From an uncultured bacterium (GTDB lineage: Bacteria > Hydrothermota > Tepidihabitantia > SM23-42): 64,000 bases of DNA. Below are positions 36,514 to 57,014 of the stretch, in pieces. The notes under the pieces were generated by a model. The model saw nothing but the letters and a program-made list of their open reading frames with translations. It ran no database searches and was not told the DNA's origin. A program made the translations under genes and the position numbers. The stretch spans positions 88,754 to 152,753 of the forward strand of contig CAYQPW010000001.1 in assembly GCA_964419565.1 (NCBI GenBank), in the 5' to 3' direction. Position 1 is the first letter of the stretch; each line of letters begins with the position of its first letter.

Positions 36514-36600
36514 GCCACCCCAGTAGATCCCTGAAAGCGTTGTCAGTGTTTACTTTAAGCATGTTAAGAGCGATGTTAAGAAGTCCCTGTATAATGATCT

Positions 36601-36798
36601 ATGAAAGAAATAATAGCGATTTGTTCAAAATGCGGTTTTGTTTCGGTTACAAAAAAAGAGAAGTATTGTCCCAATTGCGGATTAGAATTGATCAAAAAAT
36701 GCCCGTACTGTAAAGAACCGATCGATCATCCTATGGCGCAGTATTGTCCGGTCTGCGGGGCGATGTATACACAACCAAAAACCGTAAACCGGAGATAA
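36601..36798 (+). CDS. double zinc-ribbon protein (65 aa)
   Basis: Four CxxC pairs: CSKCG...CPNCG...CPYCK...CPVCG. Confidence 0.55.
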   Translation: MKEIIAICSKCGFVSVTKKEKYCPNCGLELIKKCPYCKEPIDHPMAQYCPVCGAMYTQPKTVNRR

Positions 36799-36818
36799 TG
36801 TTGGTAAGAGGAGGAAAC

Positions 36819-45424: not shown

Positions 45425-45712
45425 TACACGCTAAGGCTAGGTAATAATACACATATATTAAAAAAAAGTCAAGGGAAAATATCACCATATCAGTAAACCT
45501 CCTCACATCATAGACTTAAGTCTAATTATATCGATTTATTATAATTTGTCAACACCCATGTTGATTATTGTTTATTTCTTGTAGTCGCCCGATTCATCGG
45601 GTAATGTCTGATAAATCAGACGACTACAGTCTATTTTTGGTTTTTTTAATCTTTTTATTTACCTGATTTTCTGATAGCCTGATCTGCATGATCAAAACGT
45701 TTTTGTGTAAAA

Positions 45713-45787: not shown

Positions 45788-47629
45788 CTATTTCAATAAC
45801 ATCTTGCATATACCTTCGACTGCTATCTTGCCGTCGGCGATCGCGGTTACTGCGTCGAGGTTACGATTAACAATGTCTCCACCGGCAAAGATACGGGCGA
45901 TCGATGTCTGTCCATTTTCGTCGACGCGGACCTTGCCTCGATCAAATTGTAATTCGTCCTTAAGGACTTTTGGCAAATACGAGAAATCAGCCATCTGTCC
46001 GACCGCCTCGATGATCATATCGCCGTTAATCGTTTTATTTTTTTCTTCATAGAATGTCGGGGCAAATCTTCCTTGTTCATCGAACACGGATTTTACCGCC
46101 TTGCATTCGAGTCCGATAATTTTTTTGTTTTTTAATAGAATTTTTTTCGGACCCCATGATACATTGAACAAAACTCCTTCTTCTTTGGCTTCGGTGTGTT
46201 CTTCCTCGGTCGCCGGGATGATATCCCACGATTCAAGACAGACAATATTGACCGAGGTTTTCTCACCAGGATATTGCATGTGTTGTAATCTAACGCAGGT
46301 CCGGGCAACGTCCATTGCCACATTACCACCGCCGATAATAATGATATTTTTACCGACTTTGATTTTCTTGCCGGATTTGACCTTGGTCAGAAAATCAATG
46401 GCCTGGGGAGCCATTTGCTCGTTCTCGAGTTTGATGTACCTTCCTTTGCACATGCCGGTGCTGATGTATACGGCATCGGCATTATCATAGATAGCCTCGA
46501 ATTTTATATCCTTGCCTACCTCGGTATTGAATTTAAATTTAACACCTAATGACTCTATATAATGTATGTCCCGGTCAATAATATCCAACGGCAGCCGGTA
46601 TTGCGGCGGTCCTATTCTCAGCATACCGCCGCCGCCGGGCAGGGAATCGTAGACAGTGACCCGATGACCTTTGAGTCTTAAGAAATGTGCGACTGTCAGA
46701 CCGGATGCTCCAGCACCGATCACCGCGATTTTTTTAGCTGTATCCGAAGCGACTTTTGGCTTTAATGCCTCTCTGAAATCGACAACCTCATCAGCGACAA
46801 ATCTCTTGAGCCATCTGATTGCCAGGGGCTTGCCGCGTATGCCAATAGAGCAGGCATCCTCGCAATGCTTCATGCATATCCTGCCGCATATTGAAGGGAT
46901 CGGATTGTCTTCAAATACTTTTCTGAGCGATTCTTCGTAGTTGCCCTGGGCGATCGCTTTGATATAGTCTGATATTTTGAGGTGAGCCGGGCAGGCTTCT
47001 TCACAGAGCTTACACTCTAAGCAGCGCGCTGCTTCAGCCCGTGCTTTTTCCTCAGAATATCCCAAAACCATTTCAACAAAAGATTTTTTCCGATCGGCTG
47101 GTTCGATCACGTCCATGAAGACCCGTTCGGGTTCGAACAAAGCGAATTTTAGATCGGAAGTAAATCCTTCATAATCCTTTTTTCGGTGGGTGAGACTGGC
47201 TTTGAAAATAGAATATTTCTCAGCGGGTAAGAAGTGCTCATTATCTGATTTCTGATCTTTGGCAAGTAAGGTAAAACTTTTCGTGTCGAAGTGGATATGA
47301 AAATAATCTCTTGATAACCTCAGGCAGCCGGGCGGACATACATCGACACATAAACCGCAAAAGCAGCACCGTCCATAATCGATTTGAGGGCGTTCATTTT
47401 TCTCGCCTGGTTTTGGCTTAATTCCAGGGATTTCGATCATGGTGATCGCCTCATTCGGGCATATGTCAAGGCAGTTGCCGCAGCCCGTACATTTTTCCCA
47501 ATCGTTGAGATGGAGGCCCCGGTATCTTTCAGCCGGTTCCTTGGGTTCGAATGGGTATCTCAGTGTTTTCGGTTTTTTAAAAAGATATCTGATCGCTTTA
47601 AAAGGACTAAAGATATTTGGTTTGCCCAT
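45788..47629 (-). CDS. fusion of NuoI/MbxN-like 2x[4Fe-4S] ferredoxin subunit with GltD/SudA-like NAD(P)H-dependent FAD/FeS oxidoreductase (613 aa)
   Basis: N-terminal ...LRYPFEP.EPAERYRGLHLNDWEKCTGCGNCLDICPNEAI...YGRCCFCGLCVDVCPPG is NuoI-type. From ~aa 190: ...CLECKLCEEACPAH... and ...ICGRICMKHCEDAC... (GltD FeS motifs), KIAVIGAGASGLTVAHFL (FAD GxGxxG), IIIIGGGNVAMDVART (NAD(P)H site). Last gene of the cluster, 10 nt after the nuoD-like gene. Confidence 0.8.
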   Translation of the reverse strand: MGKPNIFSPFKAIRYLFKKPKTLRYPFEPKEPAERYRGLHLNDWEKCTGCGNCLDICPNEAITMIEIPGIKPKPGEKNERPQIDYGRCCFCGLCVDVCPPGCLRLSRDYFHIHFDTKSFTLLAKDQKSDNEHFLPAEKYSIFKASLTHRKKDYEGFTSDLKFALFEPERVFMDVIEPADRKKSFVEMVLGYSEEKARAEAARCLECKLCEEACPAHLKISDYIKAIAQGNYEESLRKVFEDNPIPSICGRICMKHCEDACSIGIRGKPLAIRWLKRFVADEVVDFREALKPKVASDTAKKIAVIGAGASGLTVAHFLRLKGHRVTVYDSLPGGGGMLRIGPPQYRLPLDIIDRDIHYIESLGVKFKFNTEVGKDIKFEAIYDNADAVYISTGMCKGRYIKLENEQMAPQAIDFLTKVKSGKKIKVGKNIIIIGGGNVAMDVARTCVRLQHMQYPGEKTSVNIVCLESWDIIPATEEEHTEAKEEGVLFNVSWGPKKILLKNKKIIGLECKAVKSVFDEQGRFAPTFYEEKNKTINGDMIIEAVGQMADFSYLPKVLKDELQFDRGKVRVDENGQTSIARIFAGGDIVNRNLDAVTAIADGKIAVEGICKMLLK

Positions 47630-47639
47630 TCACTACCTC

Positions 47640-48737
47640 CTAGCGGTCTATCTCAGGAGCAACCACATACAGGCTTATCATAATGTTACCGACATCAGCG
47701 ATACTGGCATTCTTCAGTAGCTTTTCCAAAATTACGAGTCCGTGCGTGTATGACGGTGTTCTGAAGTGCACCCGGTAAGGTTTGTCTCCGCCGTCGCTCA
47801 CCAGGTAAAGCCCGAGTTCTCCCCGTGATGACTCGACTCTCACATATGCATCGCCCGGGGGAATGGTCCATTTGAACGGGTTGGGGATCCGGTTATATAC
47901 TTCACCTTTGGGTAGATTATCAAGCAATTTGAATATCATGTGAACACTTTCGATCATTTCATCCCTGATTACCCATACCCGGGAATAGGCATCGCCATCT
48001 TCTCTTATCGGCACCTCAAAATCAACTTTCTGATAGGCAGCATACGGCTCAATTTTTCTGATATCGGATTTTAATCCGGTAGCGCGTATTACCTGGCCGA
48101 CCCCACCCATTTTTATCGCTTCTGCTTGCGTGATTTTGCCGATATCTTTGGCGCGTTCGTAAAACAGACGGTTATTAAAGAATGTCGCGTCATAGTCAGG
48201 CACACATTTGCCAATAGAGTGGAGTGTAGATACCATCCTGTCCTCAAAGCCCCGGGGAAAATCACGACGTACGCCGCCGGGCCAGATGTAGATGTGATAA
48301 ACCCGGCCGCCGGTGAGCTCTTCGAACAGATCGAGGATAAGGTCGCGGTGATACATCGCCCACTGGGCGACCGTATCAAAGCCAAGCATATTGGCATATG
48401 CCCACAGACCAAAAAGGTGCGAGCCGACGCGGGCAAGTTCAAGGTAAATGCTTCTGATATGGTGCGCTCTTTCAGGGACTTCGATGCCAGCGAGTTTTTC
48501 CACAGCCATCGAATACACCATTTCCATATGATCGGGCTCCACGACATTTATTCGGCACACCAGAGGGAAATTCTGGATCCAGGTTCGATACTCCATGAGT
48601 TTTTCAAAACCCCGATGAAGATATCCAGGATTGGCGGTCGCTTGAATGATACGGTCACCTTCGACTTTGAGGGTAATACTGAAGTTTCCTACCATGCCAA
48701 GATGTTGAGGACCAAAAAAGAGTTCCAGTTCTCTCAT
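47640..48737 (-). CDS. NuoD / Mbx-L-like 49-kDa-family subunit lacking NiFe-ligand cysteines
   Basis: ...FGPQHLGMVG... and ...NPGYLHRGFEKL... are NuoD-like. No RxCGxCxxxH near the N-terminus. The C-terminus ...SLYVVAPEIDR has no DPCxxCxxH/R. Confidence 0.8.
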   Translation of the reverse strand: MRELELFFGPQHLGMVGNFSITLKVEGDRIIQATANPGYLHRGFEKLMEYRTWIQNFPLVCRINVVEPDHMEMVYSMAVEKLAGIEVPERAHHIRSIYLELARVGSHLFGLWAYANMLGFDTVAQWAMYHRDLILDLFEELTGGRVYHIYIWPGGVRRDFPRGFEDRMVSTLHSIGKCVPDYDATFFNNRLFYERAKDIGKITQAEAIKMGGVGQVIRATGLKSDIRKIEPYAAYQKVDFEVPIREDGDAYSRVWVIRDEMIESVHMIFKLLDNLPKGEVYNRIPNPFKWTIPPGDAYVRVESSRGELGLYLVSDGGDKPYRVHFRTPSYTHGLVILEKLLKNASIADVGNIMISLYVVAPEIDR

Positions 48738-49219
48738 TTGTCCTCCTTGACAAAGGGGATCTCATCGAAATACTCTTTCACATACTTTCTTGTATCGAAG
48801 TCCTTACGAAAAGGCGGTATTTCATAATCTCTTTCCAAAAAGAGCGGGATCTGTCTGGGGTGCCCTTTAAAATCAATGCCGAAGAGTTCGTGTATTTCCC
48901 TTTCATAGGGTTCGGCATTTTCGAAAATATCGATAACAGTCCTGAAATCTAACTTTTTGCGCGGGATATTAGTTTTTAGAATAATATGATCGTTTTCAGA
49001 ATAGGAACTAAGGATATACACCAATTCCAGTTTTTCCTTATCGATCCAGTCCACGCATGAGATCAGGGCAAGATGAATGTATCCTTGATCCTTTAATGAT
49101 TTCAGAACATCTCCTGTACTATCCATGGGCACTGAGATAACAAGCCGACCGTTTTTTTCAGTCGATATTTCAATCCCGCGAAAGATCGCCTTCAGTTTCC
49201 TTTTTATTGAATTATCCAT
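48734..49219 (-). CDS. NuoC / Mbx-K-like 30-kDa-family subunit
   Basis: 161 aa, ...ERDYEIPPFRKD... Overlaps its neighbours by 4 and 8 nt. Confidence 0.7.
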   Translation of the reverse strand: MDNSIKRKLKAIFRGIEISTEKNGRLVISVPMDSTGDVLKSLKDQGYIHLALISCVDWIDKEKLELVYILSSYSENDHIILKTNIPRKKLDFRTVIDIFENAEPYEREIHELFGIDFKGHPRQIPLFLERDYEIPPFRKDFDTRKYVKEYFDEIPFVKEDK

Positions 49220-49778
49220 TTCGCTTATTTATGTTATATAGGGGGGGCCAGGCGAGTTTACCCAATGCCCTTTCCTGGTTTTTCCGGTAGTACGTGTATT
49301 TTTCTCGGTACTTTTTGTAGCCATTAGCCATTTCCTTATCGATCAGGGTCCAGAGGTGAGTAACCGCGATGAAGATTGCCTCTGGTCTTGGCATGCACCC
49401 AGCGATCCATCCATCAACAGGAATATATTTATCAAGATGTTTTATGGTATTGTAGGAATCCCAGTACATGCCGCCATTTATCGGGCAGGACCCAAAGCCG
49501 ACCGTGTATTTTGGCTCAGGCATCTGCTCGTACGTTCTGATGATCGCCTTGAGTGTTTTCAAAGAAACATACCCGGTGATCAAGAACAAGTTTGCCTGTC
49601 TCGGCGAGCCCACGGGAATTACTCCGAATCGTTCAGCATCCCATCTGGTCGTTATCACCGGCGGCACTTCAATGATCCCGCAGCCCGTGCAAAAATAAAC
49701 CGCCCACAAGGAATATTTGTTACCCATTTTTTGTGGTTGTTTGAACCACTTTGTAAGCACATTTCTATCCATAGCCAC
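49212..49778 (-). CDS. NuoB / Mbx-J-like 20-kDa (PSST) subunit carrying the N2-type [4Fe-4S] site
   Basis: ...FCTGCGIIE..., ...GSCPINGG..., ...GCMPRPEA... cysteine motifs. 188 aa. Confidence 0.75.
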   Translation of the reverse strand: MAMDRNVLTKWFKQPQKMGNKYSLWAVYFCTGCGIIEVPPVITTRWDAERFGVIPVGSPRQANLFLITGYVSLKTLKAIIRTYEQMPEPKYTVGFGSCPINGGMYWDSYNTIKHLDKYIPVDGWIAGCMPRPEAIFIAVTHLWTLIDKEMANGYKKYREKYTYYRKNQERALGKLAWPPLYNINKRNG

Positions 49779-50655
49779 CCCATATGTATGTGATGATCAA
49801 TCCAGCCAGGGCAAGAATTGTTGGCCAGGTCCAATTAAAACGGATCGCCTGTTCAATTCTAAACCTCGGAAAGACCGCGTTAATGAAAACTCCAAGGACA
49901 AACACGATCACCATTTTGAGCAGGAATGTAAAAGGCTCGCCTGCACCGCCTAAGAATAAATTTACAAACAGCGCGATCACGATAAAGCGACGGAAGGCGT
50001 GTTCAATATAATAAAGTGCTAAGAACTTACCGCTGTATTCCACTTTCAATCCAGAAGATATTTCCTGGGGCGCTTCGACCATATCGAATGGCCTGATGCC
50101 GAGCATTGCCGGTAAGATCAGAAAATAAGCGATGCCGGCTAAGGGAAGGGAAACGATACCCCAACTTGATGCTCTTTGAAAATGAACCAGGTTGACGAGT
50201 GATATCGTCCGGTAATAGAACATTAGCGTCAGCACGATCAATAGAAAGGGCACCTCATAGCTCAAGGCGAGAAGCATTTTGCGGGAAATACCGATACTGA
50301 TGTTAGGATTGGAACCACTGCCCCCGGACAAGGCGATGCCGATCGGAGCAAGGAGCATGAGGTAAAGGACCACGAGTAACCCGCCTGAAATATTGAGCGG
50401 GCATATATTGCCGATCGGAATAAACAATAATGTCACGACACTACCGGCCAATGATAACAACAATCCCAGTTCAAATATCACCCCGTGGGAAACGCTTTTT
50501 TGCAAGAACAGCTTTATTATATCGATTACCGGTTGATAGAGCGGCGGACCATAGCGCCAGTGTATCCGGGCCATTATTATTCTGAACAACCCCATAAAGA
50601 ATATTCCGATAACGAATCCGATGACCGGTGAGAGTATAAAGCCTGCCACACCCAT
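49765..50655 (-). CDS. NuoH / Mbx-M-like membrane subunit
   Basis: Start moved to the ATG at 50655 (4 nt after the upstream stop; the track ORF began at 50763 inside the upstream gene). ...RIHWRYGPPLYQPVIDIIKLF... 8 TM helices. Confidence 0.7.
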   Translation of the reverse strand: MGVAGFILSPVIGFVIGIFFMGLFRIIMARIHWRYGPPLYQPVIDIIKLFLQKSVSHGVIFELGLLLSLAGSVVTLLFIPIGNICPLNISGGLLVVLYLMLLAPIGIALSGGSGSNPNISIGISRKMLLALSYEVPFLLIVLTLMFYYRTISLVNLVHFQRASSWGIVSLPLAGIAYFLILPAMLGIRPFDMVEAPQEISSGLKVEYSGKFLALYYIEHAFRRFIVIALFVNLFLGGAGEPFTFLLKMVIVFVLGVFINAVFPRFRIEQAIRFNWTWPTILALAGLIITYIWGGYG

Positions 50656-50659
50656 GATA

Positions 50660-52528
50660 TTACCAAGGCCTCCAGATAAGCTGCACACAGATGAGCACCG
50701 CAAGAAATAACATAATATAGATGACGTAATTACCCAAATCTCCGGTATACATACGCCTGACAAATTCAGCGAGCTTTTCGCTAATTTTGCCGATCCACAC
50801 GTAGAACTGGTCTATTCTATCCTTTAACCACGGTTTGACCATTGTGTAAAAAGGATTATAAAAATCCACGGTATAATGGTATTTATCTGCAGGTACATAT
50901 GCACCTGCAGCATAGGAGTTATCCTGGGATACCAGCACCGATTTACCGCCGGTGCGGAATATTATGTAGACGATAAAAACTAATACTATGATAGCAGCAA
51001 ATATATTGATCGTATTCAGAGTGCCTGTTTCCGAGGCAATGCCCCAAAGATTGACACCCAGTGATTCGAATCCCAAAGAGATGCCGATCGAGTTGATGAT
51101 ATTCAATCCGAGACCGGGAAGGATGCCAAATATAATAGTGACTGCACACAATATTACCATTGGCAGCCGCATGCTAAAAGGAGCACTCTTTATATTTTTA
51201 TGCTTTTCCGAGAGCTGCCCCAGAAACATGTTGTGTAATAGTTTGTAGATCGCCAGTAAACTCCCCCACGTTCCGATCAAAGCCGCAAAAGCAAGGAAAG
51301 GAGAGCCGTTAAGAATCAGTGTTTTATAAATCAACCACTTGGAGACAAACCCATTCGTAAGGGGGATGCCGATCAAACCGCATGCCCCTACCAGGGTGGC
51401 GATAAAGGTAACCGGCATTTTATTTGCCAGGCCGCCTAAGGAATTTAGATCCCTGACCCCGCCGGTCCGGAATTCGACCGCACCGACCGCAAGAAAGAGG
51501 AGTGCTTTGAATATCGCATGGTTGAAAAAATGGAATATTCCGCCGGCTAGTCCCAGACTTGTACCAAAGGCGATGCCCAGGATAATGTAGCCGCATTGTC
51601 CAATACTCGACCAGGCAAGCAATTTCTTGGCATCGTCTTGAAAAACCGCGATGAAGTTGGGGATGACAATGGTGATGCCCGCGAGCAAACATAGAATATA
51701 ATGAAAACTCAGTCGCCCCTGCCCCAGATAGAGAAATATCCGCGACCCGAGCATTATATAGAATATCATGAGAAAACCAAAGGTTCCCATCTTCGCGAGC
51801 ATGCCAGAAAGCAAAGCAGTAAAGGGACTGGGTGATTCAGTATAAGCCGAAGGTACCCAGACGTGAAGCGGCATGAGGCCATTTTTTATTCCGAAAGCAA
51901 TGCAGAACATGATAAGGATGAAGACTATATAACCACGAGGAGCGCTGGCAATAAAACCTGCGATCTGCGAAATATCGAATGTTCCGAAATTCCCATATAT
52001 TGAAAGGATCCCCACTAACATGCATAACGAGCCGGCAAGAGATATTATAATGTATTTCAAACCTGCCGCCAGGGCCGGACCTTTATTATAGCTTACCAGC
52101 ACAAAAATACTCCAGGACATGATCTCCCAGAAAACGTAGAATGAGATCAGGTCACCGGACATGACAATACCGAGCATGCTGGTGCTTACCAATAGCATCA
52201 TCATATAGTAAAGACCGAGTCTTGTTTTATCTTTCATGTAGCTCAATGAGAAGATTATTGACATGGTGCTCAGTACGGTGATGGTAATGGCAAAGAGCCA
52301 GGAAAGATTATTGATCCTCAAGATCAGGGGATGGTCAAAGAACCTGGCGTACACTAATTCTTTTCCATAACCGTGTAGTCCTGCTACCATGAGTACGAGC
52401 ACTGAAGAGATAAAAATGGCAAAACCATTGCGCACATTTTGCGAGACCTTACCTAAAAGATAGGTCAGAAATGCGCCTCCCAGGGCGACGATGAGCAGGT
52501 TATTGAATATGATATCAGGGTAAGACAC
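50660..52528 (-). CDS. MrpA/MrpD-like (NuoL/M/N family) antiporter-type membrane subunit (Mbx-H'-like), 622 aa
   Basis: Polytopic protein of the NuoL/M/N proton-pumping family. Overlaps the upstream gene by 14 nt. Confidence 0.75.
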   Translation of the reverse strand: MSYPDIIFNNLLIVALGGAFLTYLLGKVSQNVRNGFAIFISSVLVLMVAGLHGYGKELVYARFFDHPLILRINNLSWLFAITITVLSTMSIIFSLSYMKDKTRLGLYYMMMLLVSTSMLGIVMSGDLISFYVFWEIMSWSIFVLVSYNKGPALAAGLKYIIISLAGSLCMLVGILSIYGNFGTFDISQIAGFIASAPRGYIVFILIMFCIAFGIKNGLMPLHVWVPSAYTESPSPFTALLSGMLAKMGTFGFLMIFYIMLGSRIFLYLGQGRLSFHYILCLLAGITIVIPNFIAVFQDDAKKLLAWSSIGQCGYIILGIAFGTSLGLAGGIFHFFNHAIFKALLFLAVGAVEFRTGGVRDLNSLGGLANKMPVTFIATLVGACGLIGIPLTNGFVSKWLIYKTLILNGSPFLAFAALIGTWGSLLAIYKLLHNMFLGQLSEKHKNIKSAPFSMRLPMVILCAVTIIFGILPGLGLNIINSIGISLGFESLGVNLWGIASETGTLNTINIFAAIIVLVFIVYIIFRTGGKSVLVSQDNSYAAGAYVPADKYHYTVDFYNPFYTMVKPWLKDRIDQFYVWIGKISEKLAEFVRRMYTGDLGNYVIYIMLFLAVLICVQLIWRPW

Positions 52529-53990
52529 TTCTGATATATTCTCCTCTGTCCAGGAGCATACCTGCAGCTGAGTTGAGTATTTTGCTGAGTACTTCTGGAT
52601 ATATGCCGATACCGACTACTAGTACCATTAAAATGCATATCGGGATAAGAACTGCGAGTGATGTATTCTTTCGTGTTTGGTCAGGATCTTTGTTGCTTTC
52701 TTTGAAGTAAATGATTTGGATCACTTTAAGGAAATAAGCACATTCAATGACTGTCGCTAGCAATACGAATCCAAGAAGAATAGTCAGCAAAAGATCATGT
52801 TGGACCAGTGTTGCTTCGACAATGAGAAATTTTGACGCAAATCCCACAAAAGGGGGAAAACCGATGAGCGAAAAAACGCCGATGACAAAAGCAAGGGAAA
52901 TCACCGGCAGTTTTTTCCCCATACCTGCCAGGGAATCGATCTCCATCGAACCCGAGCGATAGATCATATACCCGACCGTAAGAAAGAGCAGCGCTTTAGC
53001 CAGTGCGTGGGAGGTGATCTGAAACAGTGCTCCTTTTATTCCGAGAGCACTGGCAAGGCCAAATGCAAAGATAATAAGACCGATCTGGCCGGTCGATGAA
53101 TAAGCGAGCATTCTTTTTATGTTGTTCTGGCGGAAAGCGGCCAATTCTCCCACGAGCAGGGTGATCAAGCCTATAAACAAAAGGAAATGAAGAAGGCTGC
53201 TTGCTCCGAATAGCGTAAAGATGATCCTCATGATCGAGTAGACCCCCATCTTTATCGCGATGCTGGATAGGATTGCCGAGATCGAGGAAGGTGCCGAAGA
53301 GTGCGCATCAGGTAGCCAGGCATTGAGCGGGATTATTGCTGCTTCGACGCCGAATCCAGTGATCAAAAGAGCCAGCGGTAAAAATGCGGATAACGGTGTG
53401 ATCGAGTGAATATGTTTCGCAATGTGCGCCATATTAAGCGTTCCAAAATAGCCATAGAGCAATGCAATACCCATGAGGATCAATCCCGAGCCAACCGTGC
53501 CCTGGATCAAATATTTTATGCCTGCTTCAATACCTGGTTTGTCCTGGTTATATGCAACGAGCGCGTACGATGAGATGCAGAGGATCTCAAAGAACACGAA
53601 TAGATTAAATATGTCACCGGTAAGAACGATCCCGGTTGCACCAACCAGGAGCAAGAGATACAACATGTGATAACTTTGGGTGGCGCCTTTTTTGATATAA
53701 TCGACAGCGTAAATGGAGATCATCAATCCGACCAGGGCGATGAGCACGGCCAAGAACACGGCCAGAGGATCGACCATCAGGTTTATGCCGAAAGGCGCGG
53801 GAAACCCACCCAGGCTGATAATGATCGGTGCTTGGAGTACCCGGGGGATAAGGGTGATAGCGGCAGCAAGATTAAAAATCATCCCCAGAATAGGGATATA
53901 TTTTGTGATTTTTTTCGAAATAAAGCCAAACAAAGGTATGGTGAAAGTTAAGCCCAAGGGTATGACTATTAAGAGTACGGGGTTTACCAT
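52515..53990 (-). CDS. MrpD-like (NuoM/N family) antiporter-type membrane subunit (Mbx-H-like), 491 aa
   Basis: Same family as the preceding gene. Confidence 0.75.
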   Translation of the reverse strand: MVNPVLLIVIPLGLTFTIPLFGFISKKITKYIPILGMIFNLAAAITLIPRVLQAPIIISLGGFPAPFGINLMVDPLAVFLAVLIALVGLMISIYAVDYIKKGATQSYHMLYLLLLVGATGIVLTGDIFNLFVFFEILCISSYALVAYNQDKPGIEAGIKYLIQGTVGSGLILMGIALLYGYFGTLNMAHIAKHIHSITPLSAFLPLALLITGFGVEAAIIPLNAWLPDAHSSAPSSISAILSSIAIKMGVYSIMRIIFTLFGASSLLHFLLFIGLITLLVGELAAFRQNNIKRMLAYSSTGQIGLIIFAFGLASALGIKGALFQITSHALAKALLFLTVGYMIYRSGSMEIDSLAGMGKKLPVISLAFVIGVFSLIGFPPFVGFASKFLIVEATLVQHDLLLTILLGFVLLATVIECAYFLKVIQIIYFKESNKDPDQTRKNTSLAVLIPICILMVLVVGIGIYPEVLSKILNSAAGMLLDRGEYIRSVLP

Positions 53991-54325
53991 TTTAATTCTT
54001 TGATCTTACGCACATCGAGTGTACCATAATGACGGTACAATCTTATGACCAGGGAAAGAGCAAGGGCAAGGGTCGCGACACCGATTACGATCGCCGTGAG
54101 AACCAGAGCCTGGGGGATCGGGTCAACCATGAGTGACGGATTGAGTTTGTCCTTTGAAAAAATCGGAGCGGTGCCCCCTTTTATGTAACCGGTGCATACA
54201 AGAAGTATAAAAATCCCGGTTTCGAATATATCGAGTCCGATAATGACTTTGATCAAATTTCTCTTGGTGAGAACGATATACAACCCGATAATTATTAAAC
54301 CGATCGCTCCGATATAATAGATCAT
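53984..54325 (-). CDS. MrpC / NuoK-like small membrane subunit (Mbx-G-like)
   Basis: 113 aa, ...LTKRNLIKVIIGLDIFETGIFILLVCTGY...PQALVLTAIVIG... Confidence 0.7.
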   Translation of the reverse strand: MIYYIGAIGLIIIGLYIVLTKRNLIKVIIGLDIFETGIFILLVCTGYIKGGTAPIFSKDKLNPSLMVDPIPQALVLTAIVIGVATLALALSLVIRLYRHYGTLDVRKIKELKW

Positions 54326-55014
54326 GGTTCCTCTATTAACCTGTCCAGAACTCCGGTCAGTTCAGCACCGACTTTAAAGCCGATCGCAACATAGATGATC
54401 GGAATGATCCCGGCGCTGAACAACTCATTGGGCAGTCCTTTGGGCAAGTAATTAGCAAGAAAGTAACCGCTGTATAGCAGTCCCAAGAGGCCGATCACCA
54501 CAAAAACAAGCCCGCCAATAGATTCAGTTATTTTCGCAGCACTTTTATTGATGCCGCGCCATTTCCAGCATCCCAGCATGGTCAGCAGAAAACCCGAGGC
54601 AATTATCGCTCCGCCCTGGAATCCTCCGCCTGGAGTTAAGTGACCGTGGATGAAAATATAGGCGCCGAAAAGCATGGTCAACGGGAATAAGAATCTGCAC
54701 CCCGTGTAAAGGATCAAACTGCTTTTCCTGCCTTCTTTTTTCGGTTTTTTTTCTTCCTGATGAAGTACTGCGGACAGACCGATCGCCGCGAGAAATAGAA
54801 CTGTCACTTCACCGAGCGTGTCGAAACCGCGATAATTAACGACCACTGAAGTGACGATGTTGGTGGCTCCGGTATCTTTGATCCCGTTGTCGATATAGTA
54901 TTCTCTTACCTTGCTTAATGATCGACCGAATGGTATTTCTGTTAAACAAAAAATTACTCCGCTTAAAAGTATTGCCAGCAGGATAAGGCTAACTATTTTT
55001 CTCATCGTCCTCAT
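54322..55014 (-). CDS. MrpB-like membrane subunit (Mbx-F-like) with C-terminal extension
   Basis: ...GATNIVTSVVVNYRGFDTLGEVTVLFLAAIG... 230 aa. Confidence 0.65.
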   Translation of the reverse strand: MRTMRKIVSLILLAILLSGVIFCLTEIPFGRSLSKVREYYIDNGIKDTGATNIVTSVVVNYRGFDTLGEVTVLFLAAIGLSAVLHQEEKKPKKEGRKSSLILYTGCRFLFPLTMLFGAYIFIHGHLTPGGGFQGGAIIASGFLLTMLGCWKWRGINKSAAKITESIGGLVFVVIGLLGLLYSGYFLANYLPKGLPNELFSAGIIPIIYVAIGFKVGAELTGVLDRLIEEP

Positions 55015-55240
55015 GCCTTTTTGTCTTTTTTAAAGCTATGACAAATATCGCCACCGTAAGTGCCGCGCCAATCGAGGCTTCAGCCATGGCAACATCTGGA
55101 GCGTTGAGCAGGAAGAACAATATCGCCGCGATAAAACTGACGAAACCAGCGGCGATCACCGCATTTAACAGGTTTTTAAAAGTCCCGGCGCTGACTGCAG
55201 CGACCAGCATCACCAGAACAAGAATTATTTCAAGAATCAT
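54989..55240 (-). CDS. small membrane subunit, DUF4040 / MrpA-C-terminal-domain-like (Mbx-D-like)
   Basis: 83 aa, ...FFLLNAPDVAMAEASIGAALTVAIFVIAL... Confidence 0.55.
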   Translation of the reverse strand: MILEIILVLVMLVAAVSAGTFKNLLNAVIAAGFVSFIAAILFFLLNAPDVAMAEASIGAALTVAIFVIALKKTKRHEDDEKNS

Positions 55241-55559
55241 TTTCTTCCTTGCAAAGATCTTTTGATTGGTTCACTTTTGTTTTGTCGCAAAGAGAAACAC
55301 CGGACAGGCAGGAAGCCCGACCGAGCGCGTGGCTGGATATTGGATTCGTTAATAAAACAAATACCGCAATGACCAGAGTCGTCCAGAACCAGGAAGGTTC
55401 GAGTATGCCGACGCCGATAATCGTACAGAATGCTCCCAGGGTGGTGCATTTCGTGCCCGCCTGTAATCGGTTATACACGTCGGGCATCCGGTATACGCCG
55501 AGCGAACCAAGGAATAAAAATAACACGCCAAAGCCGGTCACGAACCAGCCAATGATCAT
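55230..55559 (-). CDS. MrpG-like subunit (Mbx-C-like)
   Basis: ...GSLGVYRMPDVYNRLQAGTKCTTLG... matches the MnhG/PhaG family. Confidence 0.7.
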   Translation of the reverse strand: MIIGWFVTGFGVLFLFLGSLGVYRMPDVYNRLQAGTKCTTLGAFCTIIGVGILEPSWFWTTLVIAVFVLLTNPISSHALGRASCLSGVSLCDKTKVNQSKDLCKEENDS

Positions 55560-55810
55560 AGAGTTCCTCCTTCAAGATACCGGGCAATGGCTACTGAACC
55601 GACAAAAGTCAAGACCGCATATACCAATGATACATCGAGATAGACCTGCCTCTGGAGTATGAAGCCGATCAAAACTAAGAGGGCGGTCGTGACGGTCACT
55701 GCCGTATCAAGGGCAACGGCACGATCAGGAGCAGTCGGTCCTTTTAGCATTCTTAAAAGACAGAGTACTACACCACATCCGATGATCACCAGATAGATAG
55801 TTCCTATCAT
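55556..55810 (-). CDS. MrpF-like subunit (Mbx-B-like)
   Basis: ...RMLKGPTAPDRAVALDT...LDVSLVYAVLTFVGSVAIARYLE... Confidence 0.7.
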   Translation of the reverse strand: MIGTIYLVIIGCGVVLCLLRMLKGPTAPDRAVALDTAVTVTTALLVLIGFILQRQVYLDVSLVYAVLTFVGSVAIARYLEGGTL

Positions 55811-56277
55811 TGAAATATAACCTTTAAAATTTTCTCGAATTTTTCGCCAATAATTTTTGTCGTTGTATCGATATCGACTGCTTTGACATCTATCCAGTGG
55901 ATGAGCATTTTATCTTCCTGAATATCAAGTGTAAATGTTCCCGGTGTAAGGGTGATGGAGTTGGCAAGGACTGTCTTTGCGATATCTGATTTAAGTTCCG
56001 TGTGTATGATAACGACCCCGGGGTTTATCGGGAGCGCGGGATGTATTACGCGCAGCGCTACGTCAAAATTTGCTTTTATTATTTCGAAAAAAAGAACTGC
56101 GATATACCAAAGAAAATATATAACGCGTTTTGGATTTATTGCAGGAAAACCGAGTCCGAGGTAGAATTCATTGGCAAAGAGAGCAATAAGAAATGCCACG
56201 ATTGCGCCGGTCCATAGTTTCTGATAATGGAATGATGTTGTAAGCAAAAGCCATAAAAAGAGTAAGAAAAAGAACAT
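55807..56277 (-). CDS. MrpE-like subunit (Mbx-A-like); first gene of the cluster
   Basis: 156 aa, N-terminal TM helices. 4-nt overlap with mrpF-like. Confidence 0.6.
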   Translation of the reverse strand: MFFFLLFLWLLLTTSFHYQKLWTGAIVAFLIALFANEFYLGLGFPAINPKRVIYFLWYIAVLFFEIIKANFDVALRVIHPALPINPGVVIIHTELKSDIAKTVLANSITLTPGTFTLDIQEDKMLIHWIDVKAVDIDTTTKIIGEKFEKILKVIFQ

Positions 56278-56396: not shown

Positions 56397-56425
56397 CATT
56401 ATATGCATAATATTATATTTGTCAA
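56397..56425 (-). promoter_or_regulatory. candidate sigma-70 promoter (TTGACA-N16-TATAAT on minus strand) for the mrp/nuo-like operon
   Basis: Reverse complement reads cacTTGACAaatataatattatgcaTATAATgg, ~120 nt upstream of the mrpE-like ATG. Coordinates +/-2 nt. Confidence 0.4.
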
Positions 56426-56508: not shown

Positions 56509-56537
56509 TTGACATGGATTTAAAATTCAATAATAAT
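56509..56537 (+). promoter_or_regulatory. candidate sigma-70 promoter TTGACA-N17-AATAAT for the CGGC-domain gene
   Basis: TTGACA 56509-56514. The ATG at 56514 used by the ORF track lies inside this -35 box, which supports the downstream start at 56571. Confidence 0.35.
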
Positions 56538-56570
56538 AGTCAACATCGAAGTAAAACAGGGGGTGTTTTA

Positions 56571-57014
56571 ATGGAAAAGATAAATATCGGAATAATAATA
56601 TGTCATCGTTACCATACCTGCGCTGGTGGCAAGTGCTTGCGCGCGGCCCGTAACCGTGAGGGCGCATTCAGTGTGTACCGTAATAAAGACATAGAGATCG
56701 TCGGGTACACCTCCTGCAACGGCTGCCCAGGCGGCAATATCGAGTATGCGCCTGAAGAGATGAAGAAAAACGGCGCAACGGTTATACATCTTGCAACCGG
56801 CCTGGTAGTCGGCTACCCGCCCTGTCCATACATCGCGCATTTTAGGAATTTTATCAAGGAAAAGTTTGATATGGATGTGGTTATCGGTACACATCCGATC
56901 CCGCAGAAATACTATATAACGCATACAGCCTTAAAAACATGGAATACACCAGAATGGAAAGAGTTTATCAAGCCGACCTTGGTCGATCAAGCTCTTCGTC
57001 AAGCTTACGATTGA
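56571..57014 (+). CDS. CGGC-domain protein (predicted metal-binding, ~147 aa)
   Basis: MEKINIGIIICHRYHTCAGGKCL...YTSCNGCPGG... cysteine pattern. Divergent from the mbx-like operon. Confidence 0.6.
   Translation: MEKINIGIIICHRYHTCAGGKCLRAARNREGAFSVYRNKDIEIVGYTSCNGCPGGNIEYAPEEMKKNGATVIHLATGLVVGYPPCPYIAHFRNFIKEKFDMDVVIGTHPIPQKYYITHTALKTWNTPEWKEFIKPTLVDQALRQAYD

What the first reader, a model, noticed from the sequence alone, without database searches (positions are those of the whole stretch)
45788..47629. NuoI/MbxN-like ferredoxin subunit fused to a complete GltD/SudA-like NAD(P)H flavoprotein
The first ~120 aa carry the NuoI signature (RYPFEP...RYRG.H...CTGCGNCLDICP...CCFCGLCVDVCP). The remaining ~450 aa carry every hallmark of the glutamate-synthase small-subunit family: two Cys clusters, a GxGxxG FAD site, and the GGGNVAMD NAD(P)H site. 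In canonical Mbx/Mbs the N subunit is a stand-alone ferredoxin-oxidised FeS protein. The fusion here would wire NAD(P)H directly into the membrane module. This is a compact substitute for NuoEFG or for ferredoxin dependence.
Basis: seen in the sequence. Interest (0 to 1): 0.8.

Follow-up and report, generated by a model that had tools for sequence, protein, structure and literature searches.

The report
Flavoprotein-fused subunit of Mbx-type respiratory complex
The gene is a real, widely conserved fusion of the iron-sulfur "N" subunit of an Mbx/MBS-type membrane complex with an NAD(P)H-binding flavoprotein, giving that ion-pumping complex its own pyridine-nucleotide port, but this architecture is already catalogued and has been noted in Thermotoga, so it is a new member of a known but biochemically untested kind.

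Summary
The 613-aa ORF at 45788-47629 (-) is real and intact. It joins an MbsN/NuoI-type 2x[4Fe-4S] domain (residues 1-110), a conserved linker (111-175) and a complete GltD/NfnB-type flavoprotein (176-613). It is the last cistron of a 13-gene operon (56277-45788) whose subunits each match the solved P. furiosus MBS complex best. The junction is under purifying selection. Intact fusions occur in 77 of 80 related loci from many phyla, nearly always directly after the MbsL homologue.

The architecture is not new. NCBIfam PRK13984 models it full length, Thermosipho melanesiensis carries the same operon, and a 2015 paper described a gltD-related subunit replacing NuoI in Thermotoga mbx-like operons.

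New details found here:
- This clade replaces the NADPH-type "YRR" motif with an invariant "L-E", which predicts NADH. Sister fusion clades keep YRR.
- The NADH sensor Rex and its operator are linked to the operon in many relatives, though not in this window.
- A split two-gene form exists.

The most likely function is an NADH-fed, MBS-like, ion-translocating reductase whose acceptor is probably sulfane sulfur. Direction, acceptor and specificity are inferred, not shown. Interest is moderate to low.

The parts
56398..56425 (-). Perfect sigma-70 consensus promoter (TTGACA-16-TATAAT), about 120 nt upstream of the first operon gene
   Evidence: 12/12 match. A consensus match only; not tested.
55807..56277 (-). 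mbxA-like gene, MnhE/MrpE-type subunit (156 aa)
   Evidence: Pfam MNHE, E=1.5e-39
55556..55810 (-). MrpF/PhaF-type subunit (84 aa)
   Evidence: Pfam MrpF_PhaF, E=8e-20
55230..55559 (-). MnhG/MrpG-type subunit (109 aa)
   Evidence: Pfam PhaG_MnhG_YufB, E=2.5e-25
54989..55240 (-). MbhD/MbsD-type small membrane subunit (83 aa)
   Evidence: Pfam MbhD, E=2.7e-19
54322..55014 (-). MbhE/MnhB-type subunit (230 aa)
   Evidence: Pfam MnhB plus MbhE
53984..54325 (-). NuoK/MrpC-type subunit (113 aa)
   Evidence: Pfam Oxidored_q2, E=6e-28
52515..53990 (-). Antiporter-like subunit, MbsH-type (491 aa)
   Evidence: Pfam Proton_antipo_M, E=3e-63
50660..52528 (-). Large antiporter-like subunit with C-terminal extension, MbsH'-type (622 aa)
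   Evidence: Best PDB hit is 6u8y_X over its full length (16-615 vs 13-616), 278 bits
49765..50763 (-). NuoH/MbsM-type membrane anchor. The listed TTG start overlaps the previous gene by 104 nt, so the real start is probably the ATG near 50655.
   Evidence: Pfam NADHdh. Best PDB hit is MbsM 6u8y_M at 202 bits, against 70 or less for complex I, MBH and FHL.
49212..49778 (-). NuoB/MbsJ-type subunit carrying the proximal [4Fe-4S] cluster. It keeps the MBS-specific FCTGCG loop plus GSCPINGG and AGCMPRPE.
   Evidence: MbsJ 6u8y_J at 226 bits, 61% identity, with no indel over 157 residues
48734..49219 (-). NuoC/MbsK-type subunit (161 aa)
   Evidence: Pfam Complex1_30kDa, E=1.5e-30
47640..48737 (-). 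NuoD/MbsL-type subunit (365 aa). It has no NiFe cysteines and no quinone-head ligands.
   Evidence: MbsL 6u8y_L at 352 bits, against about 247 for complex I and 139 for MbhL. MbsL C85 aligns to N64 and C385 to V359; Nqo4 H38 aligns to V16 and Y87 to V65.
45788..47629 (-). The finding: MbxN-GltD fusion gene (613 aa), the last cistron of the operon
47300..47629 (-). [quoted passage not shown]
   Evidence: 6u8y_N at E=5e-31. All ligand cysteines are invariant in 78 sequences.
47105..47299 (-). Residues 111-175: family-specific linker, conserved and under purifying selection. In the split form it belongs to the N-terminal gene.
   Evidence: No PDB homologue; pLDDT below 50.
46760..47104 (-). Residues 176-290: GltD/NfnB N-domain (Fer4_20) with 8 invariant Cys, binding two [4Fe-4S] clusters
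   Evidence: Pfam Fer4_20, E=5e-29
45791..46759 (-). Residues 291-613: FAD and NAD(P)H Rossmann domains. GAGASG 305-310 lies at nt 46700-46717, GGGNVAMD 433-440 at nt 46310-46333, and the L465-E466 pair that replaces the NADPH-type RR at nt 46232-46237.

Best explanation
The gene encodes the N subunit of a bacterial 13-subunit Mbx/MBS-type complex (Mrp-like ion-translocating module plus an MbsJKLMN peripheral module). The usual stand-alone 2x[4Fe-4S] subunit carries a complete GltD/NfnB-type flavoprotein at its C-terminus.

Shown by sequence: one polypeptide holds FAD and NAD(P)H Rossmann folds and four [4Fe-4S] sites. It sits in the NuoI/MbsN slot of an operon whose J, L, M and H' subunits each match the solved MBS complex best. 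This arrangement is conserved in many phyla.

Inferred mechanism:
1. NADH is oxidised at the FAD. NADH is predicted, not NADPH, because the 2'-phosphate-binding YRR is replaced by an invariant Leu-Glu at the end of beta-2.
2. Electrons pass through the two GltD-domain clusters, then the two MbsN-domain clusters, to the three-Cys proximal cluster of the MbsJ homologue.
3. They reduce a hydrophobic acceptor in the MbsL/J/M chamber, most probably sulfane sulfur (polysulfide) as in MBS.
4. This is coupled to H+/Na+ translocation by the Mrp-like module.

Physiologically the complex would be an NADH sink for fermentative anaerobes in sulfidic sediments. In about half of the relatives it is switched on by the NADH sensor Rex.
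For: **Identity and architecture**
- Domain assignments.
- The operon has 13 genes in mbsABCDEGHH'MJKLN order.

**MBS-type module**
- MbsL 352 bits, MbsJ 226 bits, MbsM 202 bits and MbsH' 278 bits are each the top PDB hit by a wide margin.
- The MbsJ catalytic loop FCTGCG and the two other Cys ligands are conserved without indels. The MBS paper assigns catalysis to this three-Cys cluster.
- The NiFe cysteines and the quinone ligands H38/Y87 are absent.

**Conservation**
- 75 of 76 loci with more than 100 nt of upstream DNA have the MbsL homologue upstream of the fusion, directly adjacent in most.
- All 35 loci that reach back to mnhE are colinear.
- All 16 Cys ligands, GGGNVAxD and L465/E466 are invariant.

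**NADH prediction**
- Five solved NADPH-dependent relatives have YRR where this clade has (C/S)LE.
- The model places L465-E466 directly after strand 459-464 of the second Rossmann fold.

**Rex linkage**
- rex lies directly upstream in 15 of 28 loci.
- A Rex operator is present in 10 of 31 loci, against a background of 0.0026 per 1300 nt, and also in Thermosipho.

**Other support**
- No conserved downstream partner such as NfnA.
- The split two-gene form shows that the two halves work together.
- Energetics (own arithmetic): NADH at -320 mV to polysulfide at about -260 mV yields about 12 kJ per 2 electrons. This is the same order as the 12 kJ/mol quoted for MBH, which does pump.
Against: - No biochemical data exist for any member. 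Published models make the Thermotogae complex ferredoxin-dependent, or make the flavoprotein the NAD(P)+-reducing exit.
- The window has neither a rex gene nor a Rex operator. A YRR-type operon also starts with rex, so Rex linkage does not discriminate cofactor specificity.
- MbsL C85 and C385 are lost here, although the corresponding mutants are active in MBS.
- The driving force from NADH to polysulfide is small.
- The AF2 model is unreliable for residues 14-189, so continuity of the cluster chain between the two halves is not shown.
- The NADH prediction rests on a general Rossmann-fold rule, not on a characterised GltD-family NADH enzyme.
- No sulfur-metabolism genes lie nearby in the window.
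Confidence: 0.55

Rival explanations
1. Rnf-like ferredoxin:NAD(P)+ oxidoreductase. Reduced ferredoxin donates to the MbsN-domain clusters, the GltD domain is the exit site that reduces NAD(P)+, and the membrane module pumps Na+/H+. This is the model in Degli Esposti 2015 and in the Mesotoga paper.
For: - Proposed in the literature for the same operon type.
- The GltD-family FAD site is reversible in Nfn (own knowledge).
- The driving force from ferredoxin to NAD+ (about 35-40 kJ per 2 electrons) is more comfortable than from NADH to polysulfide.
Against: - Electrons would bypass the proximal cluster and the MbsL/J/M chamber, which is the coupling site in all complex I relatives. Yet this chamber and the three-Cys loop are among the most conserved parts: MbsJ homologues share 77-91% identity and MbsL homologues 66-93% across phyla.
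- Rex derepresses at high NADH, which fits an NADH-consuming enzyme better than an NADH-producing one.
- The original Fd:NADP+ model for archaeal Mbx was superseded by the MBS sulfane reductase function.
Confidence: 0.25
2. Flavin-based electron bifurcation or confurcation. The NfnB-like FAD splits the electron pair of NAD(P)H between the membrane-module acceptor and ferredoxin, or combines Fd and NADH electrons.
For: - The C-terminal module is closest to the bifurcating or NADPH-input subunits of NfnAB, NfnI and the Bfu-type NfnA/StnA.
- One YRR-type locus has NfnAB-like genes directly downstream.
Against: - In Nfn, bifurcation needs NfnA's [2Fe-2S]/FAD branch (own knowledge). No NfnA-like partner is conserved next to the operon: downstream genes are not conserved, and only 5 loci of the 61 with more than 1.5 kb of downstream DNA carry AsrA/AsrB-like genes.
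- Only one FeS chain leaves the flavin in the fusion.
- GltD itself is a non-bifurcating member of the family (own knowledge).
Confidence: 0.07
3. The same wiring as the best explanation, but with a membrane quinone as acceptor. This would make it a minimal complex I with a one-polypeptide N-module.
For:
- The MBS chamber opening is as wide as that of complex I.
- NADH to menaquinone would give a large driving force.
Against: - The MbsL homologue lacks the equivalents of Nqo4 H38 and Y87 (V16 and V65).
- The MbsJ homologue has the MBS CxxC loop, not the complex I tandem CC.
- The module is arranged like MBS/Mrp, including the Na+ module.
Confidence: 0.1
4. Artefact: two adjacent genes (mbxN and a gltD-like gene) were joined by a sequencing frameshift or mis-assembly.
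For: A genuine split form with two overlapping genes exists in another lineage, so a two-gene state is biologically possible.
Against: - The identical 613-aa product is on 5 contigs from 3 sources.
- 77 of 80 loci from different assemblies are fused in frame.
- The linker is under purifying selection in this frame, and the alternative frames contain stops.
- The only homopolymer in the junction is A6.
Confidence: 0.01

Closest known systems
Thermotogae MBX (mbx-like operon of Thermotoga, Thermosipho and Mesotoga; terminal gene = NCBIfam NF010590/PRK13984 'putative oxidoreductase')
   Same: - The same 13-gene order, ending in an MbxN-GltD fusion of about 615 aa.
- The Thermosipho protein aligns to the query over its full length at 46% identity.
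- It has the same 16 Cys and the same Leu-Glu motif plus insertion at the NAD site.
- Rex is adjacent.
- A gltD-related subunit replacing NuoI was noted in 2015.
   Different: - The window's clade scores 697 bits on PRK13984, below the 946-bit equivalog cut-off that Thermosipho passes at 1195.
- The window's clade has a longer linker, with about 25 extra residues.
- There is no rubrerythrin-like gene downstream and no rex gene in the window.
- The hosts are mesophilic sediment lineages (WOR-3 and others), not thermophiles.
[quoted passage not shown]
   Same: - Every subunit tested matches its MBS counterpart best.
- The gene order is the same.
- The MbsJ three-Cys loop motif is conserved.
- There is no NiFe site and there are no quinone ligands.
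   Different: - MbsN is a stand-alone 208-aa ferredoxin-accepting subunit. Here it carries a ~440-aa flavoprotein, and homology to MbsN stops at residue ~110.
- MbsL C85 and C385 are replaced by Asn and Val.
- The donor is therefore predicted to be NADH rather than ferredoxin.
GltD / NfnB (NfnI-L) / SudA family, and the GltD-like NADPH-input domains of Bfu-type NfnA and StnA
   Same: - A Fer4_20 domain with 8 Cys, the FAD GxGxxG motif and the GGGNxAxD NAD(P)H site.
- E=1e-64 to 1e-76 against solved members over residues ~175-611.
   Different: - It is fused to a NuoI-type domain instead of pairing with NfnA, GltB or SudB.
- YRR is replaced by (C/S)-L-E, and there is an 8-residue insertion before beta-2.
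- It scores below all equivalog cut-offs, for example TIGR01316 at 277 bits against a cut-off of 472.
Complex I N-module (NuoEFG)
   Same: Functionally analogous: a flavin-containing NADH port feeding an FeS chain that ends at the NuoB-type cluster (inference).
   Different: It is unrelated in sequence and fold, uses FAD in a two-Rossmann GltD fold instead of FMN in NuoF, and has no NuoE/F/G genes in the operon.
Rnf complex
   Same: A possible shared physiological role in linking the NAD(H) pool to an ion gradient in anaerobes.
   Different: There is no sequence relationship, and the coupling machinery is entirely different.

Membership tests
GltD / NfnB-L / SudA flavoprotein family | N-terminal Fer4_20 domain with two four-Cys groups, binding two [4Fe-4S] clusters | tested here: met
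   Pfam Fer4_20, E=5e-29, residues 180-282. C203/206/209/213 and C248/252/256/260 are invariant in 78 sequences.
GltD / NfnB-L / SudA flavoprotein family | FAD-binding GxGxxG and NAD(P)H-binding GGGNxAxD Rossmann motifs | tested here: met
   GAGASG at 305-310 and GGGNVAMD at 433-440. Pyr_redox_2, E=8e-23. The motifs are invariant.
GltD / NfnB-L / SudA flavoprotein family | NADPH-type YRR(T/S) motif at the end of beta-2 of the NAD(P)H domain | tested here: not met
   The query has C-L-E-S at 464-467 where 9n5u, 9bov, 8oh5, 4ylf_B and 5jca_L have YRR. L465 and E466 are 100% conserved in the clade. Sister fusion clades keep YRR.
GltD / NfnB-L / SudA flavoprotein family | Passes a curated equivalog HMM (gltA TIGR01316, GltD TIGR01317/01318) | tested here: not met
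   277, 187 and 232 bits against cut-offs of 472, 448 and 483. It is a family-level relative, not an equivalog of glutamate synthase.
NuoI / MbsN 2x[4Fe-4S] subunit | Two CxxCxxCxxxCP motifs plus the conserved N-terminal segment that docks on the NuoD/NuoH homologues | tested here: met
   C47/50/53/57 and C89/91/94/98 are invariant. Residues 3-110 align to MbsN 17-118 at 54% identity, E=5e-31.
NuoI / MbsN 2x[4Fe-4S] subunit | Encoded directly after the NuoD/MbsL homologue in the operon | tested here: met
   True in the window. The MbsL homologue lies upstream in 75 of 76 loci with more than 100 nt of upstream DNA, directly adjacent in most.
NuoI / MbsN 2x[4Fe-4S] subunit | Passes the curated NuoI HMM cut-off (TIGR01971) | tested here: not met
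   90.8 bits against a cut-off of 113. MbsN-type subunits are divergent NuoI relatives.
MBS / Mbx membrane-bound oxidoreductase (P. furiosus type) | 13-gene Mrp-plus-peripheral-module operon in the order A B C D E G H H' M J K L N | tested here: met
   The order is colinear in all 35 loci that reach mnhE.
MBS / Mbx membrane-bound oxidoreductase (P. furiosus type) | MbsJ short CxxC loop giving a three-Cys proximal [4Fe-4S] cluster, the proposed catalytic site | tested here: met
   FCTGCG, GSCPINGG and AGCMPRPE align to MbsJ C25/C28, C93 and C123 with no indel (definition). The actual coordination is not testable by sequence.
MBS / Mbx membrane-bound oxidoreductase (P. furiosus type) | MbsL retains two vestigial NiFe cysteines (C85, C385) | tested here: not met
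   These positions are N64 and V359 here. The residues are dispensable for MBS activity.
MBS / Mbx membrane-bound oxidoreductase (P. furiosus type) | Stand-alone N subunit that accepts electrons from ferredoxin | tested here: not met
   The N subunit is fused to a 440-aa flavoprotein. Whether ferredoxin still docks is not testable here.
MBS / Mbx membrane-bound oxidoreductase (P. furiosus type) | Polysulfide/DMTS reductase activity coupled to ion translocation | not testable with these tools
   This needs biochemistry.
NCBIfam NF010590 (PRK13984) 'putative oxidoreductase' equivalog | Full-length match at or above the 946-bit cut-off | tested here: not met
   The match is full length (3-611 vs 8-606 of 611) but scores only 697 bits. 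Thermosipho P0124 scores 1195 bits. The architecture is the same, but the query belongs to a sister clade.
Respiratory complex I (NADH:quinone oxidoreductase) | NuoEFG N-module, quinone-head ligands (Nqo4 H38, Y87) and a tandem CC in NuoB | tested here: not met
   There are no NuoE/F/G genes in the operon. H38 aligns to V16 and Y87 to V65. The NuoB homologue has CxxC, not CC.
Group 4 membrane-bound [NiFe] hydrogenase | Four NiFe-ligating cysteines in the large subunit | tested here: not met
   None of the four positions carries Cys. The N-terminal motif reads RINVVEPDH and the C-terminus VVAPEIDR. MbhL scores only 139 bits.

The most novel reading that the evidence does not exclude
The Leu-Glu subtype, which includes this WOR-3-like clade and the Thermotogae, may be an NADH-specific, Rex-controlled, ion-pumping NADH:sulfane-sulfur (or other hydrophobic acceptor) oxidoreductase. 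That would be a second, independently evolved 'NADH dehydrogenase head' on a complex I-type machine, built from a single GltD-type polypeptide instead of NuoEFG. It is spread by horizontal transfer through dozens of anaerobic sediment phyla. A sister YRR subtype would do the same with NADPH.
Probability: 0.4. Interest if true: 0.6.

Novelty: new member of a known kind. Interest (0 to 1): 0.35.

Why it matters
If NADH is the donor, this complex lets fermentative anaerobes conserve energy from NADH re-oxidation without ferredoxin, quinones or NuoEFG. It would also be a natural example of a second solution to attaching a pyridine-nucleotide port to the complex I/MBS scaffold, which bears on how the N-module of complex I was recruited.

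The operon is present in at least 158 species-level genomes of poorly understood sediment phyla. Those proteins carry only generic labels, such as 'FAD-dependent oxidoreductase' or 'glutamate synthase small chain'. Metabolic reconstructions probably miss or mislabel it.

The LE/YRR dichotomy gives a concrete, testable prediction of cofactor specificity. However, the existence of the fusion has been in databases and in one paper for years, so the finding itself is not a discovery.

Tried and rejected
- **Structure prediction.** An AF2 model from a 55-sequence alignment was meant to show the geometry between the NuoI-type and GltD-type clusters. Residues 14-189 came out at pLDDT below 50, so no inter-domain inference was drawn and no fold search was run.
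- **Rex operator, first attempts.** My first Rex-operator scans used the wrong spacer (N6) and found nothing meaningful. They were corrected to N4.
- **Conserved partners.** I looked for a conserved downstream partner (NfnA-like, sulfur enzymes). None is conserved.
- **Linker homology.** I tested whether the linker is homologous to the C-terminal extension of MbsN. No alignment extends beyond residue ~110.
- **Context in the window.** Rfam and tRNA scans of the window found nothing. Pfam scans of 20 other window ORFs found no sulfur, hydrogenase, Rnf or Nfn genes.
- **Literature.** Searches for 'MbxN' and 'TM1217' gave no relevant hits. The Schut 2013 FEMS review, which I recall discusses Thermotoga Mbx, is not held.
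- **Rejected readings.** Hydrogenase and canonical complex I were rejected on defining residues. A frameshift artefact was rejected.
Full report
**1. The observation**

The ORF listing returns an ATG-to-stop ORF of 613 aa at exactly 45788..47629 on the minus strand.
- RYPFEP and RYRGLH.
- CTGCGNCLDICP (C47-P58) and CCFCGLCVDVCP (C88-P99).
- Two further four-cysteine groups (C203/206/209/213 and C248/252/256/260).
- GAGASG (305-310) and GGGNVAMD (433-440).

Pfam assigns Fer4_7 to residues 46-102, Fer4_20 (the 4Fe-4S domain of the DPD/GltD family) to 180-282 at E=5e-29, and Pyr_redox_2 to 300-600 at E=8e-23. NCBIfam places NuoI models on residues 3-119 and gltA/GltD models on about 165-611. [quoted passage not shown] MBH subunit N and complex I NuoI score far lower. 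The C-terminal 440 residues match NfnB/NfnI-L and the GltD-like NADPH-input domains of Bfu-type NfnA and StnA-like enzymes at E=1e-64 to 1e-76.

**2. Is the fusion real?**

Four independent lines say it is.
- The identical 613-aa protein is recorded on five contigs from NCBI, JGI and Logan, the longest 156 kb.
- The protein search returned more than 120 hits, mostly full-length at about 615 aa, with 64-87% identity.
- A scan of one genome per species found 158 matching stretches. Of the 80 loci fetched, 77 carry an intact 590-660 aa ORF.
- Between the window and its two nearest relatives, linker codons 105-185 differ mostly synonymously (23:9, 30:15 and 33:16 synonymous:nonsynonymous), like the flanking domains. 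The other two frames carry 3 and 5 stops across the junction, and the longest homopolymer there is A6.

A frameshift or assembly artefact is therefore excluded for practical purposes. Read mapping would be the formal proof.

**3. Context**

The gene is the last of 13 co-directional, tightly packed genes (56277 to 45788, minus strand). In order they encode:
- MnhE, MrpF and MnhG types, then MbhD, MbhE/MnhB and NuoK/MrpC types.
- Two Proton_antipo_M subunits.
- NuoH, NuoB, NuoC and NuoD types, then the fusion.

This is the mbsABCDEGHH'MJKLN order. A perfect sigma-70 consensus promoter precedes the first gene (56425-56398). Another precedes the unrelated GGDEF gene downstream (45552-45525), so the fusion ends the operon.

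Each subunit tested matches its MBS counterpart best, by a wide margin:

| Subunit | Best MBS match (bits) | Other matches (bits) |
|---|---|---|
| MbsL | 352 | complex I about 247; MbhL 139 |
| MbsJ | 226 (61% identity, no indel over 157 residues) | NDH-1 NdhK 133; MbhJ 105; complex I about 100 |
| MbsM | 202 | 70 or less |
| MbsH' | 278 (full length) | MbhH 245; MbsH 169 |

The MbsJ homologue keeps the short FCTGCG loop and the two further Cys ligands. In MBS these give a three-Cys proximal [4Fe-4S] cluster, which is the proposed catalytic site for polysulfide reduction. The MbsL homologue has none of the four NiFe cysteines. It also lacks the equivalents of the quinone-head ligands Nqo4 H38 and Y87 (V16 and V65). 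The two vestigial cysteines that MbsL retains (C85, C385) are Asn and Val here. Those residues are dispensable in MBS.

**4. Conservation of the arrangement**

In 75 of the 76 loci with more than 100 nt of upstream DNA, the MbsL homologue lies upstream of the fusion, directly adjacent in most. All 35 loci that reach back to mnhE are colinear for the whole set. The record titles of these loci name many phyla:
- WOR-3, Planctomycetota, Bacteroidales, Spirochaetota and Cloacimonadota.
- Fermentibacteria, Aegiribacteria, Zixibacteria and Eisenbacteria.
- Desulfobacterota, KSB1, Sumerlaeota, Atribacterota and Omnitrophota.

Identities stay unusually high across them: MbsJ homologues 77-91%, MbsL homologues 66-93% and the fusion 60-88%. 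This suggests horizontal spread of a functionally constrained cassette. Many source names point to sulfidic anoxic sediments, seeps and springs, but this is only suggestive. Downstream genes are not conserved, and in particular no NfnA-like partner recurs.

**5. It is already a known kind**

- NCBIfam NF010590 (PRK13984, 'putative oxidoreductase', 611 positions) aligns to the query end to end at 697 bits, below its 946-bit equivalog cut-off.
- The exhaustive representative search found about a dozen further full-length fusion clusters at 39-48% identity. One is the Thermosipho melanesiensis protein ABR31076.1, which scores 1195 bits on PRK13984.
- In Thermosipho this protein ends the same 13-gene operon. 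A divergent rex gene precedes the operon and a rubrerythrin-like gene follows it.
[quoted passage not shown] He read it as the NAD(P)+ reduction site and noted that the operon often terminates with rubrerythrin.
- Later work on T. maritima treats MBX as a putative ferredoxin-dependent sulfur reductase, with mbxA induced 4.4-fold by S0 (PMC9431562). A Mesotoga study models it as a Fd:NAD(P)+ oxidoreductase (bioRxiv 10.1101/322537).

I found no biochemical characterisation of any member in the held library. The window's gene is therefore a new, sister-clade member of a catalogued but functionally untested architecture.

**6. New details from this analysis**

(a) Cofactor motif. At the end of beta-2 of the NAD(P)H Rossmann fold, five solved NADPH-dependent relatives have Y-R-R-(T/S). 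The query has C-L-E-S, preceded by an 8-residue insertion. L465 and E466 are invariant in all 78 clade sequences. The structure model places them directly after strand 459-464, in a region of acceptable confidence. By the general Rossmann-fold rule (my own knowledge), an acidic residue here favours NAD and Arg residues favour NADP. This clade is therefore predicted to use NADH.

The distant fusion clades split cleanly on this feature:
- L-E plus the insertion: Thermosipho and P0122, P0123, P0125, P0126, P0128.
- YRR without the insertion: P0127 (Hydrothermae), P0129, P0130 (Spirochaetaceae), P0131, P0133.

The YRR-type fusions also end Mbx-type operons.

(b) Rex linkage. A gene with the Rex architecture (Put_DNA-bind_N plus CoA_binding) lies directly upstream on the same strand in 15 of 28 loci with enough upstream DNA. 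It lies directly downstream of the fusion in two more. A Rex operator (TTGTGAA-N4-TTCACAA, 2 or fewer mismatches) occurs upstream in 10 of 31 loci. Most of these sit just in front of rex. The background rate is 0.0026 per 1300 nt. The Thermosipho rex-mbx intergenic region has one as well. The window has neither the rex gene nor the operator.

(c) Split form. In L084 a 176-aa MbxN-plus-linker protein (fusion residues 6-168) and a 450-aa GltD-like protein (residues 164-611) are encoded by overlapping genes (ATGA overlap) with their own RBS. They follow an MbsL homologue. The natural domain boundary is therefore near residue 165. The split form also shows that the two halves function together.

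**7. Mechanism**

Shown: a single polypeptide combines an FAD/NAD(P)H site with four [4Fe-4S] sites. It sits where the electron-input subunit of an MBS-type machine sits.

Inferred: NADH passes electrons to FAD, then through two GltD-domain clusters and two MbsN-domain clusters to the MbsJ proximal cluster. From there they reach a hydrophobic acceptor in the MbsL/J/M chamber. This is coupled to H+/Na+ movement through the Mrp-like module. Sulfane sulfur is the best guess for the acceptor, because the catalytic loop is MBS-type and the quinone and NiFe determinants are absent.

The driving force from NADH (-320 mV) to polysulfide (about -260 mV) is about 12 kJ per 2 electrons by my arithmetic. 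This is small, but of the same order as the 12 kJ/mol quoted for the proton-pumping MBH. Rex derepresses at high NADH, which fits an NADH sink.

The main rival is the published Rnf-like reading, in which ferredoxin enters and NAD(P)H leaves. It has better energetics. It leaves the highly conserved coupling chamber without a role, and it fits Rex control less well. Bifurcation is unlikely without a second branch from the flavin. A quinone acceptor is disfavoured by the missing ligands.

The continuity of the cluster chain between the two halves could not be checked, because the model is unreliable for residues 14-189.

**8. Verdict**

The domain interpretation is correct, and the functional wiring is plausible but unproven. 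NADH is more likely than NADPH for this clade. The novelty was overestimated: this is a new member of a known kind. Interest is moderate to low (0.35). It is raised slightly by the breadth of distribution, the lack of any biochemistry, and the testable LE/YRR prediction.

Noticed in passing
L009, L010, L017, L027, L028, L030, L032, L063-L066, L069, L073 and others (about 100-1100 in each locus); L081:475-1104; L085:291-917: A Rex-family redox-sensor gene lies directly upstream of the mbx-like operon in 15 of 28 loci. It is divergent in Thermosipho, and lies downstream of the fusion in L003 and L004. Canonical Rex operators sit in front of it, for example TTGTGAATATTTTCACAA in L069. It is absent from the window and from its closest relatives L001 and L002.
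   Followed up: yes
L084:618-2497: A split version of the fusion: a 176-aa MbxN-plus-linker gene and a 450-aa GltD-like gene overlap by ATGA, and the second gene has an RBS. The MbsL homologue upstream keeps the C-terminal Cys (…DVCPPDIER) that the window's MbsL has lost.
   Followed up: partly
Alignment A2 (P0127, P0129, P0130, P0131, P0133 versus the window, P0122-P0126 and P0128): There are two subtypes of the fusion at the NAD(P)H site. One is NADPH-like (YRR, no insertion). The other is NADH-like (L-E, with a 5-8 residue insertion).
   Followed up: partly
P0122 (764 aa); L081:11853-12356: One distant fusion carries an extra C-terminal rubrerythrin/ferritin-like extension. Thermosipho has a separate rubrerythrin-like gene immediately after the fusion, which matches the 2015 remark that the operon often ends with rubrerythrin. 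The window has none.
   Followed up: no
L083:12112-14540: In a Spirochaetaceae MAG, a YRR-type fusion is followed directly by NfnA-like (NAD_binding_1 plus DHODB_Fe-S_bind) and NfnB-like (Fer4_20 plus Pyr_redox_2) genes.
   Followed up: no
L005:7495-9830 and four other loci: In 5 loci of the 61 with more than 1.5 kb of downstream DNA, the fusion is followed by AsrA/AsrB- or sulfhydrogenase-beta/gamma-like FeS and FAD proteins plus a polyferredoxin. These are possible sulfur- or hydrogen-related partners in those lineages.
   Followed up: no
window 49765-50763 and 50660-52528 (-): The mechanically listed TTG start of the NuoH/MbsM-like ORF overlaps the preceding gene by 104 nt. The real start is probably the ATG near 50655 (MGVAGF…).
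   Followed up: partly
window 56514-57014 (+): A CGGC-domain protein (PF08821) is encoded divergently from the operon promoter region. Its function is unknown, and it is not conserved next to the operon elsewhere.
   Followed up: no
window 45580-45625 (-): A compound inverted repeat (GTAGTCGTCTGATTTATCAGAC…CCCGATGAATCGGGCGACTAC) lies about 165 nt after the fusion stop codon. It may be a terminator or a regulatory hairpin. The simple terminator scan did not list it.
   Followed up: no
window 33145-42667 (+): Three consecutive giant ORFs of about 1000-1120 aa. Only the last one was scanned, and it has almost no Pfam signal (a weak UspA1 adhesin repeat). They are probably surface proteins.
   Followed up: no
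window 62001-64000: G+C jumps to 55% here, against about 45% in the rest of the window. No rRNA, tRNA or Rfam family was detected anywhere in the window.
   Followed up: no
L055 (Elusimicrobia MAG, 2802 nt): This is the only locus with more than 100 nt of upstream DNA (773 nt) in which no MbsL homologue was detected upstream of the fusion. It may represent a different context, or a rearranged or mis-assembled contig.
   Followed up: no
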